DNA from: a virus
Lineage: Duplodnaviria > Heunggongvirae > Uroviricota > Caudoviricetes
Length of the DNA: 64,000 bases
IMG/VR virus record: IMGVR_UViG_3300045996_002451
Location: 83,172 to 147,171 of that record
Reading direction: 5' to 3' (one strand)
The notes under the pieces were generated by a model, which saw only the letters and a list, made by a program, of their open reading frames with translations, had not been told where the DNA came from and ran no database searches. The position numbers were made by a program, and so were the translations under genes. The stretch's first letter is position 1, and each line of letters starts with the position of its first letter. This document shows, one piece after another, positions 2 through 43,743 of this stretch.

Positions 2-592
2 TTCATCGGGTTGATCAAAGCCATCGACCGGTTTGATGACACGCGCGGGGTACAGTTTGTCAGCTTCGCCGTGGGCATGATCCGCTCCCACATCCTGGAG
101 CAGATTCGGGAGGAAGATCCCTTACCTCGGTTGACGCAAGATCGACGTAAGCGCCTAGCCCGAGAATCAGCAAGGTTGATCGCTACCCTGGGTCGCTTAC
201 CAACCTCCGAGGAGTTAGCGGAAGCGATGGGACTGGAGCTGGATACGTTCTACAAGTTCCGTGCCAAACTCGCCATGTCCCACGCTGAGTCGCTGGAGAA
301 AACCCTGGATAGGGAAGAGGAGCAACTTACGCTTCGGGACACAGTGTCCGATCCTGCCGTAGACGTGGCTCAGCAGGTAATGGCCAAGGCCGCGGCAGGT
401 GAGGTCAAGAGTTTTATGAAGTACCTGCCTAGTCGCGAGTGCTTGGTTCTGGAGCGCTATTACTGGGGACATGAGACCCTGCTGGAGATCGCGCGCAGTC
501 TGGGTATAAGCGAGTCCCGCGTACACCAGATTCAGCAACTGGCGCTTTCCCGGCTAAGGCAGATGTTGGTGGGCTCCATCGTCGCCTCCTAA
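2..592 (+). CDS. RNA polymerase sigma factor, FliA/WhiG (sigma-28) type, 5'-truncated by window edge
   Basis: Frame open from base 2: FIGLIKAIDRFDDTRGVQFVSFAVGMIR (region 2), LGRLPTSEELAEAMGL (region 3), LPSRECLVLERYY...TLLEIARSLGISESRVHQIQQLALSRLR (region 4 HTH). Confidence 0.9.
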   Translation, partial: FIGLIKAIDRFDDTRGVQFVSFAVGMIRSHILEQIREEDPLPRLTQDRRKRLARESARLIATLGRLPTSEELAEAMGLELDTFYKFRAKLAMSHAESLEKTLDREEEQLTLRDTVSDPAVDVAQQVMAKAAAGEVKSFMKYLPSRECLVLERYYWGHETLLEIARSLGISESRVHQIQQLALSRLRQMLVGSIVAS

Positions 593-595
593 GGC

Positions 596-626
596 AAAAA
601 AAGACCGGTCCTGTTAAAGACCGGTC
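596..626 (-). terminator. Rho-independent terminator-like hairpin with its U-tract on the minus strand
   Basis: A7 (596-602), then GACCGGTC (603-610), 8-nt loop, GACCGGTC (619-626). Confidence 0.45.
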
Positions 627-667: not shown

Positions 668-683
668 TGTTACCCGTGTAACC
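668..683. promoter_or_regulatory. Motif A copy (TGTTACCCGTGTAACC)
   Basis: Exact 14-mer GTTACCCGTGTAAC at 669-682, upstream of the LmbU/ParB-like gene. Confidence 0.8.
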
Positions 684-688
684 CTACG

Positions 689-704
689 GTTCGACGCGTC
701 ATAC
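689..704. promoter_or_regulatory. Motif B copy (GTTCGACGCGTCATAC; 2 mismatches to GTATGACGCGTCATAC)
   Basis: 5 bp downstream of motif A; matches perfect palindromes at 27613 and 43728. Confidence 0.65.
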
Positions 705-733
705 AAAAGTGTATCAGGCGTGAACGAAAGGGG

Positions 734-739
734 TATACT
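734..739 (+). promoter_or_regulatory. Possible -10 element (TATACT)
   Basis: TATACT about 120 bp upstream of the 860 start; no convincing -35 seen. Confidence 0.3.
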
Positions 740-859
740 GTAAGTGATCGAGATTGAGCGAGAGCCGAGCCGCCCTCCCTCGGAAGACCTCAATCGGGTT
801 AGCGGAAGACTTCCCACTTCCGCACCCAAGAAGCGTTTGTTACTTTTGGAGGAACTGAG

Positions 860-1582
860 TTGAGCAACCCATTACCGGCTATCGTGCAGACCGTTAACCA
901 GCAGCAGTCGCAAAGCTGGCAAGACTTTGTCGAAGAGATCGAAAAGATCGACGTGCAGGAGACGCAAGGGGCGCTCCGCATGGGTGACCTGTTCATCCTG
1001 GCGGAAGAGACCTACGGTCCGAAGAACCTGCAGAAGCTGGCGGAAAACGCCGGGGTTTCGTGGAGTGTGGCTCGACAGCGCCTTTGGGTGTCGAAGCGCA
1101 TCCCGAAAGACAGCATCGTACGGAAGATGAAGGCGCTCACCTTCGGTCACCTGCGCGCGCTGGCGGCAACCGACAAGCAGGAAGAGTGGGCGACCAAGGT
1201 GGAAACCGAGGACCTCACGGTTCGCGATCTGATCGAGGCCATCGACCAGTCCGGCGACAAGCGTAAGGTGGAAAACGGCTTTGCGAGTTGTGCGGACTGC
1301 GGCACGGACATTGTTGCAGGTAGCGAAACCTACGTAGCGGTAAGTCTGGCGGGTGGCAAACGCAACCTCTGCTGCAACGCGGCTTGTGCGATCAACTACC
1401 TGAACCGCGCCGTGACCGCCACGAGCGTGCCGGAAGCCGATCCTTTTACCCCCACGGTCCCTACGGACGCGGCGGAAGCTGAAACAGCGGAAGTCGGCCC
1501 GGTTGAGGACAGCGAAGGGATGCTGGATGCCCCAAGTGTGGATGAGGTCACTTCTAACGAAGATGATCCCTGGGCCGAGTAA
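860..1582 (+). CDS. LmbU/ParB(Spo0J)-like HTH DNA-binding protein with Cys-rich (Zn-binding) domain and acidic tail
   Basis: LQKLAENAGVSWSVARQRLWV...LTFGHLRALA...LTVRDLIEAI resembles the Spo0J/LmbU HTH region (LSMGHGRTLL...LNVRQLEQLI); CADC...CCNAAC; GGAGG RBS; no ParB N-terminal CTPase domain. Confidence 0.6.
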   Translation: MSNPLPAIVQTVNQQQSQSWQDFVEEIEKIDVQETQGALRMGDLFILAEETYGPKNLQKLAENAGVSWSVARQRLWVSKRIPKDSIVRKMKALTFGHLRALAATDKQEEWATKVETEDLTVRDLIEAIDQSGDKRKVENGFASCADCGTDIVAGSETYVAVSLAGGKRNLCCNAACAINYLNRAVTATSVPEADPFTPTVPTDAAEAETAEVGPVEDSEGMLDAPSVDEVTSNEDDPWAE

Positions 1583-1609
1583 GGTTCCGGCTCAACGTTT
1601 AGACGCTTC

Positions 1610-1637
1610 GGGGTGTTACAGACTGTAACACCCCTTT
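1610..1637 (+). terminator. Terminator-like hairpin whose arms contain motif-A half sites
   Basis: GGGGTGTTACA-GAC-TGTAACACCCC-TTT just after the 860-1582 gene. Confidence 0.6.
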
Positions 1638-1661: not shown

Positions 1662-2174
1662 GTGACGACTCCCGAAGAGCCCGGTAGCAACCCCGATTTT
1701 GATTGCATGGCGTCGTATCTCAAGGGGGAGAAGCCTGAACTTCCTGAGCTGGACGAAGAGGCCGTACAGCGCCTGGACGCTCAACTGGAAGCAGAGATGG
1801 TGGCGGACTTCGCGGATGCGCTGGGTATGCGGGAGAACGAACCAAAAGAGCACGAAGCCTACCTCCGCAAGATCCTGGACACGTTCTCGCTGCACTGTCC
1901 GGAGTGCGGGACGATCTGCGAAGAGCATGGGTGGGACGTGCGTGTACGGGATCACGTGATTCGACACGCGGCGAAGCTGGCCAAGCGCTTTGTAGAGGGC
2001 GCCGAGATTTACAGTCAGCAGCGGGCCTGGGGGGTTAACGAACCGCGCGAACTGCTGGGTGCCCTCTTTGAGATCCTGGACGAGTTGCAGGTGCTGAATG
2101 AAGCATCTGAACCACAGGATCACCAGGACCACTCCTTTCCAGAGCAAGAGGACAAGGAAGGCACGGAGGAGTAA
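1662..2174 (+). CDS. Hypothetical acidic protein with CxxC motif
   Basis: 170-aa ORF, AGGAG RBS, HCPECGTIC motif. Confidence 0.7.
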   Translation: MTTPEEPGSNPDFDCMASYLKGEKPELPELDEEAVQRLDAQLEAEMVADFADALGMRENEPKEHEAYLRKILDTFSLHCPECGTICEEHGWDVRVRDHVIRHAAKLAKRFVEGAEIYSQQRAWGVNEPRELLGALFEILDELQVLNEASEPQDHQDHSFPEQEDKEGTEE

Positions 2175-5619: not shown

Positions 5620-6054
5620 ATGCCTATTCCCCAGTTGAAGTCCATTACCGAGAGTCTTGGCGGCTCTGTTGCCACGATGGGCGGTTGGGGTTTGATGGGG
5701 GCACTCAGCCTCCACAGCTACCACCAGCGCGTCAAGGGCGGCGAGTACTTTGCCAGCGCCGCGGTCAAAGAAGGCGCCTCCTTTGCCATGGGGGCCCTAC
5801 TCTCCGGTCCGGCAGCGTTTGCGATCTACGCGGTCGCTCCGGCAGTCGGGTTCGGCACAACCGCGCTGATTGGAGCGGTTAACCGACAGACCACCATGAA
5901 TCGGCAGATGCGCACGCCGTTCAGTCACCGCTTTGAACACACCGAGATCACGGCTCGCGCGCAAGTCGCGGGCCTGCAAGCCATTGGTGCTTCTGTCGCC
6001 CACCAGTACATGGGTTCAGAAGCGGCCATGATGGCGCGTCGTTATGGAAGATAG
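5620..6054 (+). CDS. Gly/Ala-rich hypothetical membrane protein
   Basis: 144-aa ORF with hydrophobic segments (FAMGALLSGPAAFAIYAVAPAVGFGTTALIGAV). Confidence 0.65.
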   Translation: MPIPQLKSITESLGGSVATMGGWGLMGALSLHSYHQRVKGGEYFASAAVKEGASFAMGALLSGPAAFAIYAVAPAVGFGTTALIGAVNRQTTMNRQMRTPFSHRFEHTEITARAQVAGLQAIGASVAHQYMGSEAAMMARRYGR

Positions 6055-6592
6055 TATGTTTGACCCTTTAATGAAGATCGATCGGCCTTACCTAGCCAGC
6101 CTGCTGCAGTATGGCGGGAAACCCTTCGAGCCCAACGCGTTACAACGACACGTCCTGGGAAAGGAAGAGTGTACGTTAGATGTGATTCGACGCATCGGTA
6201 AAAGTCTGGCGCTGGCCAGCTACGCTGTGGCGGAAGCGTTGTTCCAACCCGAGCAGGACGTGGTGGTGCTTATCCCTAGTCTGCTCCAAGGTGGAGAGAT
6301 TATAAGTTACGTGGATGAGCTGCTCGAGACAGACTGGGTCGTTCCTTACCAGCGCTTCAGCACAGACCGTCCGTATCCTTGTCGCGGGTTTAACAATGGT
6401 TCCCGGATCCGGTTCCTGAGCCAGGAAAAGCACGCGCACGGATTTACGCCGACTACCTTGTTGGTAGACGAGCCGTGTCAGATAGAAGACGCTACCTGGG
6501 TCAAGGTGCTGCGTAAGCTCGCTGGTAAGCGCATCGAACTGGGAAGTTCCCCTTTAATGGAAGAAATCTTCCAGGAAATCACGCGCAGCTAA
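6044..6592 (+). CDS. Truncated terminase-large-subunit ATPase-domain paralog (no nuclease domain)
   Basis: Colinear with the N-terminus of 6687-8381: PFEPNALQR/PFTANDVQR, RRIGKS/RRAGKS (Walker A), TDWVVPY/NDWIAPY, FNNGSRI/FSNGSRV, LLVDE/VLIDE (Walker B). Confidence 0.7.
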   Translation: MEDSMFDPLMKIDRPYLASLLQYGGKPFEPNALQRHVLGKEECTLDVIRRIGKSLALASYAVAEALFQPEQDVVVLIPSLLQGGEIISYVDELLETDWVVPYQRFSTDRPYPCRGFNNGSRIRFLSQEKHAHGFTPTTLLVDEPCQIEDATWVKVLRKLAGKRIELGSSPLMEEIFQEITRS

Positions 6593-6668: not shown

Positions 6669-6684
6669 TGTTACCCGTGTAACA
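6669..6684. promoter_or_regulatory. Motif A copy (TGTTACCCGTGTAACA)
   Basis: Exact copy ending 2 nt before the TTG start of TerL. Confidence 0.85.
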
Positions 6685-6686
6685 CC

Positions 6687-8381
6687 TTGGCACTGAACCT
6701 TGCCTCCCTCCTGGCGCAGCTCCCTCCGGAGCAGGCTGCCGCCGTGCTGTGTAACCCCAAAGAGTTCGCGGAGACCTTTATCCGCAACCCGGACGGGACT
6801 CCCTTTACCGCGAACGACGTTCAGCGGCGGATCTTCAAAAGTCCGTACAACAAGAACGTCATTCGCGTGCATCGCCGCGCCGGGAAGTCGCACTCGTTCG
6901 CCATCATCATCCTGTACCACGCCCTGGTACGCCCCAACTGCAAGATCCTGGTCGTCGGCCCGATGGCCGTCCACGTCGAAGAAGTCTTCAAGAAGGTTCG
7001 TGACTTCATCGAAGCCAACGACTGGATCGCCCCGTACAAGGTCGTCGACTCCCAGAGCCCTAAGCAGAAACTTGAGTTTTCTAACGGCTCCCGGGTCACC
7101 GGTCTTACCACCGGGGTCAAGAGTAAGGGCGGGGCGCTTAGCGCGCGCGGTCAGGAAGCCGACGTGGTCCTGATCGACGAAGCTGCGTACCTGAACGAAT
7201 CGGACTGGGAATCGCTCAAAGCTATTCTTTCCGGAGACGCCTACCGTTCCGGTAAGGTGTTGGTCTATGTAGCATCCACTCCCGCGTTCACTCGCGGGAC
7301 TTATTACAAGCTGTGTAAAGACCCGAAGCGTAAAGATCCGACCAAGGGTAACTACTGGCACGAGATCTACCAGGACCTCAAAAGCAACCCGGATCCGCTC
7401 TGTACTCCTAAGTACAAGCAGGACTGTGAAAACGAGTGCACCACCGAGCTGGAGTGGACCAAGGAGTGGATGGCGGAGTTCCCAGAACTGGGACTCGGCA
7501 TCTTCCCGAAGAACCTGGTCGAGAAATGTCAGATTTCGATCATCTACGCAGAGCACTACGAACGGTGTGCCAACGAGGACCGCACCAAGCGCGCGGCCTC
7601 GCGCACGATCGGGGTCGACTGGGATAAGTTGAACCGCGACGGGCATGGACCCAACATTGCGGTGCTGGAAGCGCAAACAAGTGGGAACTATCGGGTAATC
7701 TATAGAGAAGAGATCCCTCAGAGTCAGTTCGCCTTGCATAAAGCGGTCGCGCGTGTGCAGGTGCTGAACGAGATCTTCCGCCCCGAATGGATCTACGTGG
7801 ACCGCGGTTACGGCGAGTACCAGGTGGAAGAGTTCCAACTGGCGGGTCAAGCCGATCCTTCTTCGGGCCTCGATACCAAAGTTGTGGGGATCAACTTCCG
7901 CAACATGATCGAGACCCCGATGCCGGGCGGTGGTCCGGTGGACCGCAAACCGTTCAAGCACGCCATGATTAACCTCATGCGGATGTGGTTTGAGCGGGGA
8001 CGCATCGAGATCTCGAAAGAAGACGAAGAGTTCTTCGAGCAGCTCCTCGGTTACGAGGTGGTTACCCAGACCGCCACGACCCTGACCTACTCCAGCGAGA
8101 ACGAGCACGCCATTGACGCCGTGGGCCTGGCTGCGATGGCCATGCATCACATGGTGAAGAACCCCTACGGGTTCCAGCAAGCCACGCAGATGCACGTCGT
8201 GGATGCGCCGCAAGCGGTTCCGGGTCATCTGGCTAAGGCGGTGACCCAGTACGGAACCGCGCGCGGACTACAGAGCCCACGCGAAACCACCCGTCAGTTT
8301 TTTGAGCACCTGGGAACCGACAACAGCTTCAGTCGTTCCCGTTTGGGAATGGCGCCTCCGGTACGTCGTTCCAGTCTTTGA
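6687..8381 (+). CDS. terL: Terminase large subunit
   Basis: Walker A HRRAGKS, Walker B VLIDEAA, motif III VASTP, RNase H-like nuclease IGVDW...IYVDRG...EHAIDAVGLA. Confidence 0.9.
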   Translation: MALNLASLLAQLPPEQAAAVLCNPKEFAETFIRNPDGTPFTANDVQRRIFKSPYNKNVIRVHRRAGKSHSFAIIILYHALVRPNCKILVVGPMAVHVEEVFKKVRDFIEANDWIAPYKVVDSQSPKQKLEFSNGSRVTGLTTGVKSKGGALSARGQEADVVLIDEAAYLNESDWESLKAILSGDAYRSGKVLVYVASTPAFTRGTYYKLCKDPKRKDPTKGNYWHEIYQDLKSNPDPLCTPKYKQDCENECTTELEWTKEWMAEFPELGLGIFPKNLVEKCQISIIYAEHYERCANEDRTKRAASRTIGVDWDKLNRDGHGPNIAVLEAQTSGNYRVIYREEIPQSQFALHKAVARVQVLNEIFRPEWIYVDRGYGEYQVEEFQLAGQADPSSGLDTKVVGINFRNMIETPMPGGGPVDRKPFKHAMINLMRMWFERGRIEISKEDEEFFEQLLGYEVVTQTATTLTYSSENEHAIDAVGLAAMAMHHMVKNPYGFQQATQMHVVDAPQAVPGHLAKAVTQYGTARGLQSPRETTRQFFEHLGTDNSFSRSRLGMAPPVRRSSL

Positions 8382-10262: not shown

Positions 10263-11735
10263 TTGATGCCTGACACTGCCGAGCTGCTGGAACGAACCGG
10301 CTTCGCTGCGATCGATCGTGCAGAAGCACCCCGGGCGCCCAAGACGCTGGCCGGAATCACGGTGATCAGCGACCCGACGGGAACTCCTTCGATCAACCGC
10401 ATGCACTGCTTTGACGGTGACCGCGGTAATAAGGTGGCGTACCGTGACATCGACAAAGCCTGGAATGTCGACTCCTACTTCCGCCAGGGAGTAGACAAGT
10501 ACGTCGAGCTGTGTTTCATTCGCGGCTGGCGTTACGACTGCGAAACCGACGAGCCGGTAGCGTACTTGCGCCGACGTTTCCAGTTGATGGGTATCATGAC
10601 CCGTAAGCCTTGGGATATTTTGATCGCCGAGGTGCTGGACGACGTTACCAAGTATGCAAACTGCTACCTGGTAAAAAAGCGTGGTTCCCTTTCCCAGCCG
10701 ATCCCCGGTATTCCCAGTCAAGGCGTACTTGGCAACGCGAACCCGATCCTCGGTTACTTCCGTGCAGATCCCAAGCGGCTCTGTCCGGAGTTCTCTCCCG
10801 ACGGAAAACGGTTGATCCGTTACCGGTACACCCTGCCGACCGGCAAGCTTTCCTATTTCAAAGCCAACGACGTCGTCCACTTCACGCGCAGCGTGCAAGC
10901 AGGAGACGCACTCGGTAACAGTCATCTTGGCCCGGTGCTGGATGACGTCAAGACTTACCGCCAGTGCGAAGAGTACGTCATTCGGCTGCTTTACAAGCAC
11001 CTGAACCCGTTGCTCCACCACGAAGTGCCGGAGCGCACGCCGGGTTACGGGGCAGCGCAGGGCGACGTGGATGCGGCGGCTTGGAGCCACGCGTTCATCG
11101 CGCCGGACGGGATGGTAGTTACTCCTCCCGGACACAAGATTAGCATGATCGGCGCGGAGAGCCGCGCGCTTCGCGGTGAGGGCTACATGGACCTCCTGAA
11201 GAAGCGCCTCTTCGCAGGCCTGGGTGTCTCGCAGGTCGCCATGGGCGAAGGCGAAACCTCTACGGCAGGCTCTGCTGACGCGCAGACCGCGACCATGCAC
11301 AACAAGGCACACTTTATCCAGTCGGTGCTGGCCTCTCAGTTGACGGAGTACATCTTATTTGAACTCCTGATGGAAGGCGGTTACGATCCCACCGCGGAGC
11401 TGGACAAAGTCACCTGGTCCTGGAATGACTTCGAGATCGAGACACGAATCAAGATCGAGAACAATGAAGTTCAGAAGTACACCAACGGGCTAACTACCCG
11501 GACTCGTGCGCTACGCCGCATGGGTGAGCGTCCTTTTGCGGATAGCGAACAGGAAGACACCTACGTTTACCTGGTTACGATTCCTGCTGAAGAGGCACGC
11601 GCGGAAGGGCAGGCTTCAATTGCTGCCGCACGGGGAACCGCTTCCGCTACCGGTCCAGCTAAGCAAGTAGCTAGCCGGAACAAACCTTCTAATCAGCATG
11701 GTGCGCGTAGTGCACCTAAGGTCCGCCCCAAGTAG
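10263..11735 (+). CDS. Portal protein
   Basis: 490 aa; DDVTKYANCYLVKKR, NDVVHF, LFAGLGVSQVAMG, IQSVLASQLTEYILFELL; position after TerL and before protease. Confidence 0.85.
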   Translation: MMPDTAELLERTGFAAIDRAEAPRAPKTLAGITVISDPTGTPSINRMHCFDGDRGNKVAYRDIDKAWNVDSYFRQGVDKYVELCFIRGWRYDCETDEPVAYLRRRFQLMGIMTRKPWDILIAEVLDDVTKYANCYLVKKRGSLSQPIPGIPSQGVLGNANPILGYFRADPKRLCPEFSPDGKRLIRYRYTLPTGKLSYFKANDVVHFTRSVQAGDALGNSHLGPVLDDVKTYRQCEEYVIRLLYKHLNPLLHHEVPERTPGYGAAQGDVDAAAWSHAFIAPDGMVVTPPGHKISMIGAESRALRGEGYMDLLKKRLFAGLGVSQVAMGEGETSTAGSADAQTATMHNKAHFIQSVLASQLTEYILFELLMEGGYDPTAELDKVTWSWNDFEIETRIKIENNEVQKYTNGLTTRTRALRRMGERPFADSEQEDTYVYLVTIPAEEARAEGQASIAAARGTASATGPAKQVASRNKPSNQHGARSAPKVRPK

Positions 11736-12996: not shown

Positions 12997-13012
12997 GTAT
13001 CACGCGTCATAC
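12997..13012. promoter_or_regulatory. Motif B copy (GTATCACGCGTCATAC; 1 mismatch)
   Basis: 3 nt after the protease stop, upstream of the scaffold gene. Confidence 0.75.
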
Positions 13013-27612: not shown

Positions 27613-27628
27613 GTATGACGCGTCATAC
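27613..27628. promoter_or_regulatory. Motif B, perfect 16-bp palindrome GTATGACGCGTCATAC
   Basis: Directly adjacent to motif A. Confidence 0.85.
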
Positions 27629-43727: not shown

Positions 43728-43743
43728 GTATGACGCGTCATAC
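43728..43743. promoter_or_regulatory. Motif B, perfect palindrome GTATGACGCGTCATAC
   Basis: Intergenic, upstream of the metallophosphoesterase gene. Confidence 0.85.

What the first reader, a model, noticed from the sequence alone, without database searches (positions are those of the whole stretch)
668..1637. LmbU/ParB-like HTH gene bracketed by motif-A sites: candidate cognate binder
Seen: 860-1582 has a Spo0J/LmbU-like HTH segment (LQKLAENAGVSWSVARQRL...LTFGHLRAL...LTVRDL) fused to a CxxC...CCxxxC module and an acidic tail, with no CTPase domain. An exact motif A lies upstream (668), and the terminator just after the gene has motif-A arms (TGTTACA-GAC-TGTAACA, 1614-1630). Inference: an autoregulated, CTPase-less ParB-type protein with a Zn module replacing the dimerisation domain could read the dispersed sites. 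It sits next to the phage sigma factor, so the two may form a late-programme control pair.
Basis: inference. Interest (0 to 1): 0.7.

Follow-up and report, generated by a model that had tools for sequence, protein, structure and literature searches.

The report
Phage ParB-fold zinc-finger DNA binder
This jumbo-phage gene encodes a real but uncatalogued, probably dimeric DNA-binding protein (a ParB/LmbU-type helix-turn-helix plus a four-cysteine zinc finger), yet the dispersed "motif A" sites beside it more likely belong to the phage's separate full-length ParB.

Summary
Window 860-1582 encodes a 240-aa protein made of a long N-terminal helix, a ParB-type DNA-binding domain (VIA Z 10.4 to ParB, 9.7 to Spo0J, 8.0 to KorB), a C-x2-C-x24-C-x3-C zinc finger of the TRASH/MYM/eL24 type, and an acidic tail. 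It has no CTPase domain. An exact motif A lies upstream, and a strong hairpin built on motif-A arms lies downstream.

The family is real, with 667 cluster representatives, all from metagenomes. It matches no PHROG and only falls below threshold in Pfam and NCBIfam (HTH_ParB, DUF1016_N, LmbU). A homodimer is predicted (0.74 against 0.00 for the best control).

The claim that this protein is the cognate reader of motif A is weak. Motif A resembles parS, has about 49 evenly spaced copies, and co-occurs with a canonical ParB (GERRLRA) 14 kb upstream, here and in a relative. Homologues with the same recognition helix sit in loci without motif A.

The protein is most likely a stand-alone dimeric regulator at the head of the packaging and structural block, sometimes next to a sigma gene, with an unidentified operator.

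This scan had already read motif A as ParB sites on this genome (e1-5596832) and found similar tiled sites in other phages.

The parts
2..592 (+). 3' part of the phage sigma-70-family factor gene (regions 2, 3 and 4), the upstream neighbour
   Evidence: Pfam Sigma70_r4 6.2e-13, r3 5.7e-9, r2 3.4e-7; phrog_351 4.1e-30
603..626 (.). hairpin after the sigma gene (GACCGGTC...GACCGGTC); its T-run lies on the minus strand
668..682 (+). exact motif A copy (TGTTACCCGTGTAAC), one of about 49 parS-like sites in the genome
689..704 (.). motif B-like site GTTCGACGCGTCATAC (14 of 16 matches to the palindrome GTATGACGCGTCATAC)
734..739 (+). putative -10 element TATACT within GGGGTATACTGTAAGTG; the same GGGTATACTGTA context precedes the homologue in L027
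   Evidence: read from sequence; inference
848..853 (+). Shine-Dalgarno GGAGGA, 6 nt before the TTG start
860..1582 (+). CDS of the 240-aa ParB-fold/LmbU-like zinc-finger protein (P0001)
878..1015 (+). long N-terminal helix (residues 7-52), which forms the main predicted dimer interface
   Evidence: AF2 model, pLDDT 87; interface residues 19-52
1019..1273 (+). ParB-type DNA-binding domain (residues 54-138): HTH with recognition helix SWSVARQRLWVS, then the GHLRAL and LTVRDL helices
   Evidence: HTH_ParB residues 59-130; Foldseek top hits ParB/Noc; VIA Z 10.4/9.7/8.0
1289..1423 (+). C4 zinc finger (residues 144-188; C144, C147, C172, C176) of TRASH/MYM/eL24 type, plus the following helix
   Evidence: invariant Cys; MYM-type finger E 4.7e-4 and eL24 3.6e-3; TRASH and zf-FCS hits in members
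1424..1579 (+). disordered acidic tail (16 D/E, 0 K/R) ending in DDPWAE
   Evidence: pLDDT 53-62; composition; the PW-x-E ending is shared with P0003
1610..1634 (+). terminator-like hairpin GGGGTGTTACA-GAC-TGTAACACCCC followed by TTTGCG
   Evidence: hairpins follow the homologues in L001 and L002 too, with unrelated sequences
1662..2174 (+). conserved downstream 170-aa CxxC acidic-tail gene, syntenic in L001 and L002
   Evidence: 36% and 26% identity

Best explanation
The gene encodes a stand-alone, sequence-specific DNA-binding protein of an uncatalogued phage family.

Predicted architecture. Two subunits pair through their long N-terminal helices and their C4 zinc fingers. This presents two ParB-type helix-turn-helix units to a dyad-symmetric DNA site. 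There is no CTPase domain, so the protein cannot work as a sliding ParB clamp. It would behave as a classical operator-bound regulator, as its distant relative LmbU does.

Likely role. It is made from its own promoter-to-terminator unit as the first gene of the packaging and structural block, about 5 kb upstream of TerL. I infer that it regulates that late programme, possibly together with the neighbouring phage sigma factor.

Relation to the motifs. Its promoter region carries a motif A site and a motif B-like site, so the gene is itself wired into the phage's motif network. The roughly 49 evenly tiled, parS-like motif A sites are more probably read by the phage's canonical ParB. This protein's own operator has not been identified.

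Shown here: fold, zinc-ligand conservation, family, synteny.
Predicted: the dimer.
Inferred: regulatory role, timing and target.
For: Fold:
- The AF2 model has pLDDT 87 and pTM 0.72.
- The best structural matches are ParB, Spo0J, KorB, Noc, SopB and VirB DNA-binding domains (Foldseek prob 1.00, rmsd 2.2-2.5 over about 100 columns; VIA Z 10.4, 9.7, 8.0, 7.7).
- There are sub-threshold HTH_ParB, DUF1016_N and LmbU_fam_TF matches in the protein or its relatives.

Zinc finger:
- Four cysteines are invariant in 64 sequences.
- The profile matches a MYM-type finger and eL24.

Dimer:
- ipSAE is 0.74 against 0.00 for the best of 3 controls. At least 82% of contacts agree between runs, and partner pLDDT is at least 77.
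- In the tool's calibration this mark was reached by 20 of 30 proteins solved as pairs of one chain and by 1 of 23 solved as single chains. Those counts hold only roughly here, because my own alignment was used.
- The interface covers residues 19-52, 60-67 and 154-185.

DNA-targeting role of the N-domain:
- Longer relatives fuse it to DNA methyltransferases of five families: N6_N4_Mtase, C5 DNA_methylase, MT-A70, Dam and D12.
- The first half of the recognition helix varies across the family, while the scaffold residues Q-R-x-W-V-S are kept.

Family and context:
- The profile search finds 667 representatives at E <= 1e-3.
- The homologue lies 4.5-5.5 kb upstream of TerL in G000, L002, L013 and L025.
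- In the three closest loci a promoter-like sequence lies upstream and a hairpin downstream.
- A sigma region-4 gene lies directly upstream in G000, L012 and L001.

Motif A belongs to ParB rather than to this protein:
- A canonical ParB is present with a motif A variant 57 nt upstream of it.
- A 60%-identical ParB orthologue sits in an 8.1-kb relative locus with 3 motif A sites.
- L002 and L025 carry homologues with recognition helices SMSVARQRLWVS and SLSVARQRFWVS but have motif A only at chance level.
Against: - No DNA target was found. A search for dyads (5+5 nt, perfect arms) shared by the syntenic segments of G000, L001, L002 and L025 found none.
- Only 20.6 kb of the 261-kb L002 contig and 7.9 kb of L025 could be read, so a few motif A operators elsewhere in those phages cannot be excluded.
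- In a third phage (L027) a motif-A-like dyad, GTTACATGTGTAAC, lies 8 nt upstream of the -10 of the homologue's promoter. This fits autoregulation through motif A as well as it fits ParB control.
- The recognition helix shares A-R-Q with this phage lineage's ParB.
- The sigma neighbour is absent in L002, L025 and L011.
- The dimer is a prediction only.
- Foldseek E-values are weak (4e-3), and helical folds often give middling Z scores.
Confidence: 0.5

Rival explanations
1. The CTPase-less ParB-fold dimer itself reads motif A. It would do so either alone or at the same sites as ParB, for example as a lock, roadblock or competitor of the clamp, and it would autoregulate through the upstream site.
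For: - It has a ParB-type DNA-binding domain and a predicted dimer that suits a dyad site.
- An exact motif A lies 177 nt upstream of the start.
- In L027 a motif-A-like dyad lies in the promoter of the homologue. The chance of GTTAC-N4-GTAAC in 810 bp is about 8e-4 (the probability is my calculation).
- The downstream hairpin is built on motif-A arms.
- A-R-Q in the recognition helix is shared with the ParB lineage of motif-A phages but not with other ParBs.
Against: - A canonical ParB is present and co-occurs with motif A here and in the relative.
- Motif A matches 13 of 16 positions of the classical parS consensus as I recall it (established knowledge, not tested here).
- It is tiled evenly (mean spacing 4.2 kb, CV 0.48).
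- L002 (20.6 kb, about 4.9 sites expected at G000's density) and L025 lack it, although their recognition helices are the same.
- L001 has motif A but none upstream of its homologue.
- About one in six intergenic gaps carries a site anyway.
- The family profile scores the phage's own ParB below several unrelated ParBs.
Confidence: 0.18
2. The protein reads motif B (GTATGACGCGTCATAC). This is a perfect 16-bp palindrome lying in the spacer of sigma-70-like promoters. The protein would then act as a KorA-like operator protein alongside the ParB/motif A system.
For: - Motif B has about 12-16 copies, nearly all intergenic.
- Several copies lie 4-5 nt upstream of a -10-like hexamer, with TTGTAT as the -35, for example G000 80962, 126899 and 70219 (read; inference).
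- A 14/16 copy lies in this gene's own upstream region (689-704).
- Motif A and motif B are adjacent at three places.
- A perfect palindrome fits the predicted homodimer.
Against: - Motif B is absent from L002, L025, L013, L016 and from the 12.7 kb of L001, despite conserved recognition helices.
- Other candidates exist, notably the 271-aa HTH protein next to ParB, whose own promoter carries a perfect motif B.
- In the relative, motif B lies upstream of parA.
Confidence: 0.12
3. The protein is a packaging-site recognition factor, in the role of a small terminase subunit, rather than a transcription regulator.
For: - It keeps a conserved position at the head of the block that contains TerL and portal in four phages.
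- No recognisable small terminase was found between it and TerL.
- It has an N-terminal DNA-binding domain and a C-terminal acidic tail that could dock a partner.
Against: - It lies 4.5-5.5 kb and about nine genes from TerL, and has its own terminator-like hairpin.
- It is predicted to be a dimer, not a ring.
- Its structural match to a small terminase is negligible (3zqq, prob 0.06).
- Its relatives are LmbU-type regulators and the targeting domains of methyltransferases.
Confidence: 0.08
4. The HTH no longer reads DNA. The protein is instead an adaptor that binds the phage sigma factor, RNA polymerase or ParB through its zinc finger or acidic tail.
For: - A sigma gene lies directly upstream in three contigs.
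- MYM and TRASH-type fingers often mediate protein contacts (established knowledge).
- The tail is acidic and disordered, and its PW-x-E ending is shared with P0003.
Against: - The HTH scaffold and the basic residues R72, R74 and R99 are conserved.
- The tail is missing in P0004 and P0005.
- The sigma neighbour is not universal.
- No interaction was tested.
Confidence: 0.07

Closest known systems
DNA-binding domain of chromosomal and plasmid ParB proteins (Spo0J, Noc, KorB, SopB, VirB)
   Same: Same fold across the HTH and the following helices (VIA Z 10.4 to 6s6h, 9.7 to 1vz0, 8.0 to 8qa8). The sequence motifs G-x-S...recognition helix, GH-x-RAL and L(T/S)VR-x-L are kept.
   Different: No ParB_N CTPase domain and no GERRxRA box. 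No ParB C-terminal dimerisation domain; instead there is a long N-terminal helix and a C4 zinc finger. HTH_ParB scores below Pfam's cut-off (18.2 against 22.6 bits).
LmbU family of Streptomyces cluster-situated regulators (NCBIfam NF038070; PMC6510168)
   Same: A stand-alone Spo0J-like HTH regulator without a CTPase domain. It forms homodimers and binds promoter DNA through its HTH (PMC6510168). Homologues of P0001 hit the LmbU model over positions 12-131 (E 1.3e-9).
   Different: Scores are far below the family cut-off (38 bits at best against 125), and P0001 itself does not hit. No zinc finger is reported for LmbU, and its dimer depends on Cys12. LmbU is actinomycete and chromosomal; this family was seen only in phage-like metagenomic contigs.
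DUF1016_N (N-domain of YhcG-type PDDEXK nucleases) and DUF3102 phage/plasmid proteins
   Same: Same layout of helix, HTH and following helix. 9 of 64 members hit DUF1016_N. The nearest named Atlas clusters are viral DUF3102 and DUF1016/ParB-HTH proteins (scores 0.87 and 0.84, leads only). As in YhcG, relatives carry an enzyme domain after this module.
   Different: All hits are sub-threshold. Here the partner module is a zinc finger, not a nuclease or methyltransferase.
TRASH / MYM (FCS) / eL24 treble-clef zinc fingers, including archaeal HTH-TRASH metal-responsive regulators
   Same: C-x2-C-x24-C-x3-C spacing with a beta-hairpin and helix. The profile matches the ZMYM5 finger (E 4.7e-4) and eL24 (3.6e-3). 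Two members each hit TRASH_HVO_1752_C and zf-FCS. The HTH-plus-TRASH architecture recalls archaeal copper regulators (my recollection, not tested).
   Different: The finger is fused to a ParB-fold domain, not an Lrp-type HTH. Nothing here indicates metal sensing. In the model the finger packs into the dimer interface.
KorA/KorB with OA/OB operators of IncP plasmid RK2
   Same: The genome has a ParB-family clamp with many dispersed sites, plus a second palindrome at promoters, and the two motifs are sometimes adjacent. A small dimeric HTH partner would complete the analogy.
   Different: There is no sequence or fold relation to KorA, and no evidence that this protein binds motif B or ParB. The analogy is an inference, also made in the earlier scan note e1-5596832.

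Membership tests
ParB/Spo0J/Noc/KorB family (CTP-dependent clamps) | N-terminal ParB_N (CTPase) domain with the GERRxRA box | tested here: not met
   No ParB_N hit in P0001. The only ParB_N match in the genome is at G000 69240-69521, in another gene.
ParB/Spo0J/Noc/KorB family (CTP-dependent clamps) | HTH DNA-binding domain of ParB fold | tested here: met
   VIA Z 10.4, 9.7 and 8.0. Foldseek's top 12 hits are all ParB or Noc. Pfam HTH_ParB is sub-threshold, E 0.0028.
ParB/Spo0J/Noc/KorB family (CTP-dependent clamps) | C-terminal ParB dimerisation domain | tested here: not met
   Residues 144-188 form a C4 zinc finger and 189-240 are disordered.
ParB/Spo0J/Noc/KorB family (CTP-dependent clamps) | specific binding to a parS-type site | not testable with these tools
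   No protein-DNA assay or co-folding was available. The comparative evidence argues against motif A as this protein's site.
LmbU family (NF038070) | score above the curated cut-off of the family model (125 bits) | tested here: not met
   P0001 has no hit at E <= 0.1. Homologues score 24-38 bits.
LmbU family (NF038070) | stand-alone Spo0J-like HTH regulator that forms a homodimer | tested here: inconclusive
   The fold matches. The homodimer is predicted only (0.74 against 0.00 for the best control). LmbU's properties are taken from PMC6510168.
TRASH / MYM-FCS / eL24 zinc fingers | C-x2-C-x(19-24)-C-x3-C ligand pattern, conserved | tested here: met
   C144-x2-C147-x24-C172-x3-C176, invariant in 64 sequences. 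Profile hits to 2das (4.7e-4) and eL24.
TRASH / MYM-FCS / eL24 zinc fingers | bound metal ion | not testable with these tools
   Needs metal analysis of the purified protein.
Small terminase subunit | ring-forming oligomerisation domain, and a gene adjacent to TerL | tested here: inconclusive
   The gene lies 5.1 kb upstream of TerL and has its own hairpin. A dimer is predicted. Only a negligible match to 3zqq was found.

The most novel reading that the evidence does not exclude
The protein is a CTPase-less ParB-fold dimer that binds the same parS-like motif A sites as the phage's ParB clamp, or binds motif B next to them. It would act as a gate or lock on the clamp. With the neighbouring phage sigma factor, this would turn a genome-wide array of ParB loading sites into a switch for the late (packaging and structural) genes. 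That would be a phage analogue of KorA/KorB built from two ParB-fold proteins.
Probability: 0.15. Interest if true: 0.75.

Novelty: new variant of a known kind. Interest (0 to 1): 0.45.

Why it matters
Large uncultured phages carry genome-wide arrays of ParB-type sites whose purpose is unknown. This genome has two ParB-fold proteins: a full clamp and this clamp-less, zinc-finger dimer. Working out which one reads which motif would make the function of the arrays testable.

The family is large (667 representatives at 50% clustering) and absent from PHROGs. Its architecture, a ParB-fold DNA-binding domain plus a TRASH-type finger, matched no curated Pfam, NCBIfam or PHROG family above threshold.

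The same DNA-binding module is fused to five kinds of DNA methyltransferase in relatives. It therefore looks like a portable DNA-targeting domain of wider use.

If the protein proves to be only a conventional late-gene regulator, the finding is a useful annotation and nothing more.

Tried and rejected
- **Upstream ORF as ParB.** The 314-aa ORF upstream of the sigma gene (L007 1309-2253) is not the ParB. It is a PhyH dioxygenase.
- **Cultured or catalogued relatives.** None were found. tblastn of P0001, P0010 and P0038 against 50,697 phage records gave no match. IMG/VR and GTDB pattern scans found no relative. PHROGs gave no significant family.
- **Metagenome scan for ParB relatives.** This gave one distant locus only.
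- **Shared dyads.** Dyads shared by the syntenic segments of four phages: none, observed 0 against 0 in shuffles, so the test had little power.
- **Special kinship with the phage's own ParB.** I tested whether P0001's DNA-binding domain is specially related to it. hhalign gives 31% identity over 71 columns but only 28% probability. The family profile scores other ParBs higher. Rejected as evidence.
- **GGTATCC-N5-GGATACC as the conserved target.** This palindrome is shared by L001 and L002 but absent from G000. Rejected.
- **Motif A as an RNA hairpin or terminator.** The isolated site folds no better than shuffles (z -0.05), and copies occur in both orientations relative to transcription.
- **Short contigs for P0006, P0008, P0010, P0009 and P0011.** These gave little context.

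Full report
**Setting.** The window is bases 83172-147171 of a 211,171-bp IMG/VR virus record, estimated 98% complete and 59% GC. Genes run on the minus strand up to about 68 kb and on the plus strand from 69 to 196 kb. The finding lies at the start of the plus-strand block that holds TerL (window 6687-8381) and portal (10263-11735).

**The observation.**
- The ORF 860-1582 (TTG start, GGAGGA 6 nt upstream) gives a 240-aa protein, P0001.
- All quoted sequence features are present.
- Motif A (TGTTACCCGTGTAAC) is exact at 668-682. It is a real repeated element: 16 matches with up to 2 mismatches in the window against 0.06 expected.
- The whole genome holds 49 sites with up to 2 mismatches. The invariant core is TACCCGTGTA, mean spacing is 4.2 kb, and the CV of 0.48 is more even than random.
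- Most sites lie between genes, in both orientations relative to transcription.
- The hairpin after the gene (1610-1634) is strong and uses motif-A arms. However, it has N5 spacing and lacks the conserved core.
- That hairpin is almost identical to an extended motif A site at G000 152717-152746. The resemblance is therefore real, but by the motif's own conservation profile it is not a motif A site.

**What the protein is.**
- Pfam gives only a sub-threshold HTH_ParB match.
- A profile search of 1.84 billion cluster representatives finds 667 relatives at E <= 1e-3 and 104 at E <= 1e-10, most about 200 aa long.
- In a 64-sequence alignment, G42, R88 and four cysteines (C144, C147, C172, C176) are invariant.
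- Some members hit DUF1016_N, HTH_ParB, TRASH and zf-FCS, and LmbU_fam_TF at down to 1.3e-9. All of these are below the curated cut-offs.
- The AF2 model is confident (pLDDT 87). It shows a 46-residue N-terminal helix, a helical domain at residues 54-138, a small beta-hairpin-plus-helix zinc finger, and a disordered tail.
- Structure searches place residues 33-141 with ParB, Spo0J, KorB, Noc, SopB and VirB DNA-binding domains.
- The finger matches eL24/RLP24 and a MYM-type finger.
- LmbU itself was originally modelled on Spo0J templates and binds DNA through that HTH (PMC6510168). "ParB/LmbU-like" is therefore a fair description.
- The protein fails the ParB family's defining CTPase test and the LmbU model's cut-off, so it is a member of neither.

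**How it probably works.**
- A two-copy prediction passes clearly: 0.74 against 0.00 for the best of 3 controls, at least 82% of contacts agreeing between runs, and partner pLDDT at least 77.
- In the tool's calibration this mark was reached by 20 of 30 proteins solved as pairs of one chain and by 1 of 23 solved as single chains. Those counts hold only roughly here, because my own alignment was used.
- The interface is made of the N-terminal helix, residues 60-67 and the zinc finger. It also fits a dyad-symmetric DNA target.
- Longer relatives carry the same N-terminal module in front of DNA methyltransferases of five different families. This argues that the module targets DNA.
- Across the family, the first half of the recognition helix varies while its scaffold is kept, as expected for a specificity-determining helix.

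**Who reads motif A.**
- The genome encodes a canonical ParB at 69141-70151, with ParB_N (1.3e-17), HTH_ParB (2.8e-13), a GERRLRA box and 3e-20 to Noc.
- A motif A variant lies 57 nt upstream of that gene.
- Its 60%-identical orthologue lies in relatives next to a ParA gene, in an 8.1-kb locus with three motif A sites and one motif B. The same protein is also recorded on a contig of the same length (42,856 bp) as the one that carries P0003.
- Motif A matches 13 of 16 positions of the classical parS consensus as I recall it. That is established knowledge, not tested here.
- By contrast, P0004 (39% identity; helix SMSVARQRLWVS) and P0007 (41%; SLSVARQRFWVS) sit in 20.6-kb and 7.9-kb loci where motif A and motif B occur only at chance level. 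G000's density predicts about 5 and 2 sites respectively.
It is only partial because those genomes could not be read in full.

- In the 810-bp contig of P0011, the dyad GTTACATGTGTAAC lies 8 nt upstream of a GGGTATACTGTA -10 context that is also present before P0001.
- P0001 shares A-R-Q in its recognition helix with this ParB lineage.
- The family profile, however, does not favour that ParB over others.
- I therefore give the motif A reading about 0.18.

**Motif B.**
- GTATGACGCGTCATAC is a perfect 16-bp palindrome with about 12-16 copies, almost all intergenic.
- In several copies it fills the spacer of a sigma-70-like promoter, TTGTAT-N16/17-TAAACT or TAAGCT. This is my reading.
- A 14/16 copy lies at 689-704, between motif A and the putative -10 of this gene.
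- It is a candidate operator for P0001, but it is absent from the other homologue loci. Another HTH protein next to ParB has a perfect copy in its own promoter.

**Context.**
- The homologue is the first gene of the block leading to TerL and portal in G000, L002, L013 and L025.
- In the three closest loci a promoter-like sequence lies upstream and a hairpin downstream; this is my reading of the sequences.
- It is followed by a conserved CxxC acidic protein.
- A sigma region-4 gene lies directly upstream in G000, L012 and L001, but not in L002, L025 or L011.
- The proposed "control pair" with sigma is therefore a recurring association, not a constant one.

**Verdict.** The finding is a real, uncatalogued phage DNA-binding family with a new domain combination. 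The specific claim that it is the cognate reader of motif A is the less likely reading. This scan had already interpreted motif A as ParB sites on this genome (e1-5596832). I re-derived the ParB gene, the site count and the spacing independently.

Noticed in passing
window 12997-13012, 27613-27628, 43728-43743 (and G000 8736, 21654, 68873, 70219, 80962, 150926, 179732, 186152, 192186): Motif B, the perfect 16-bp palindrome GTATGACGCGTCATAC, is almost always intergenic. In several copies it sits in the spacer of a sigma-70-like promoter (TTGTAT ... TAAACT/TAAGCT/TATACT). It flanks the ParB gene on both sides and precedes the operon that contains the sigma gene.
   Followed up: partly
L023 2630-4601: In the close relative, the ParB orthologue (60% identity) is preceded by a 280-aa ParA/MipZ-type ATPase gene, with motif B 165 nt upstream of it. 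G000 has no gene in that position. The lineage may therefore have had a complete parAB system and lost parA.
   Followed up: partly
proteins P0088, P0093, P0094, P0117, P0128, P0143: Longer relatives fuse the same N-terminal ParB-fold/DUF1016_N-like module to DNA methyltransferases of five families (N6_N4, C5, Dam, MT-A70, D12-like). The module looks like a portable DNA-targeting domain.
   Followed up: partly
L001 5082-5100 and L002 739-757: Two distant relatives each carry a 19-bp palindrome with the same 7-bp arms (GGTATCC-N5-GGATACC). The palindromes lie inside non-homologous genes and in different reading frames. G000 has none. This remains unexplained.
   Followed up: partly
window 744-863: A 39-codon upstream ORF starts at GTG 744, 4 nt after the putative -10. 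It ends at a TGA that overlaps the TTG start of the gene (TTGA). It could couple translation or could be meaningless. It is not present in L001.
   Followed up: no
window 6044-6592 and 6669-6683: The 182-aa ORF just upstream of TerL hits a TerL PHROG (phrog_7579, 6.5e-7). An exact motif A lies between it and TerL. An earlier scan note (e1-5400578) describes it as a truncated duplicate of the ATPase.
   Followed up: partly
window 1662-2174: The downstream 170-aa protein has a CxxCG...IC(D/E)xH motif and an acidic tail. It is conserved and syntenic in L001 (36% identity) and L002 (26%). No family matches.
   Followed up: partly
G000 70219-70254 (outside the window): The 271-aa HTH protein next to ParB (weakly replication-initiator-O-like) starts at a GTG only 6 nt after a TATACT -10 that follows a perfect motif B. 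This suggests a leaderless mRNA.
   Followed up: no
window 1559-1579; P0003 C-terminus: P0001 and P0003 share a short (D/E)(D/N)PW-x-E motif at the end of otherwise unrelated acidic tails. It may be a docking motif. The tail is absent in P0004 and P0005.
   Followed up: no
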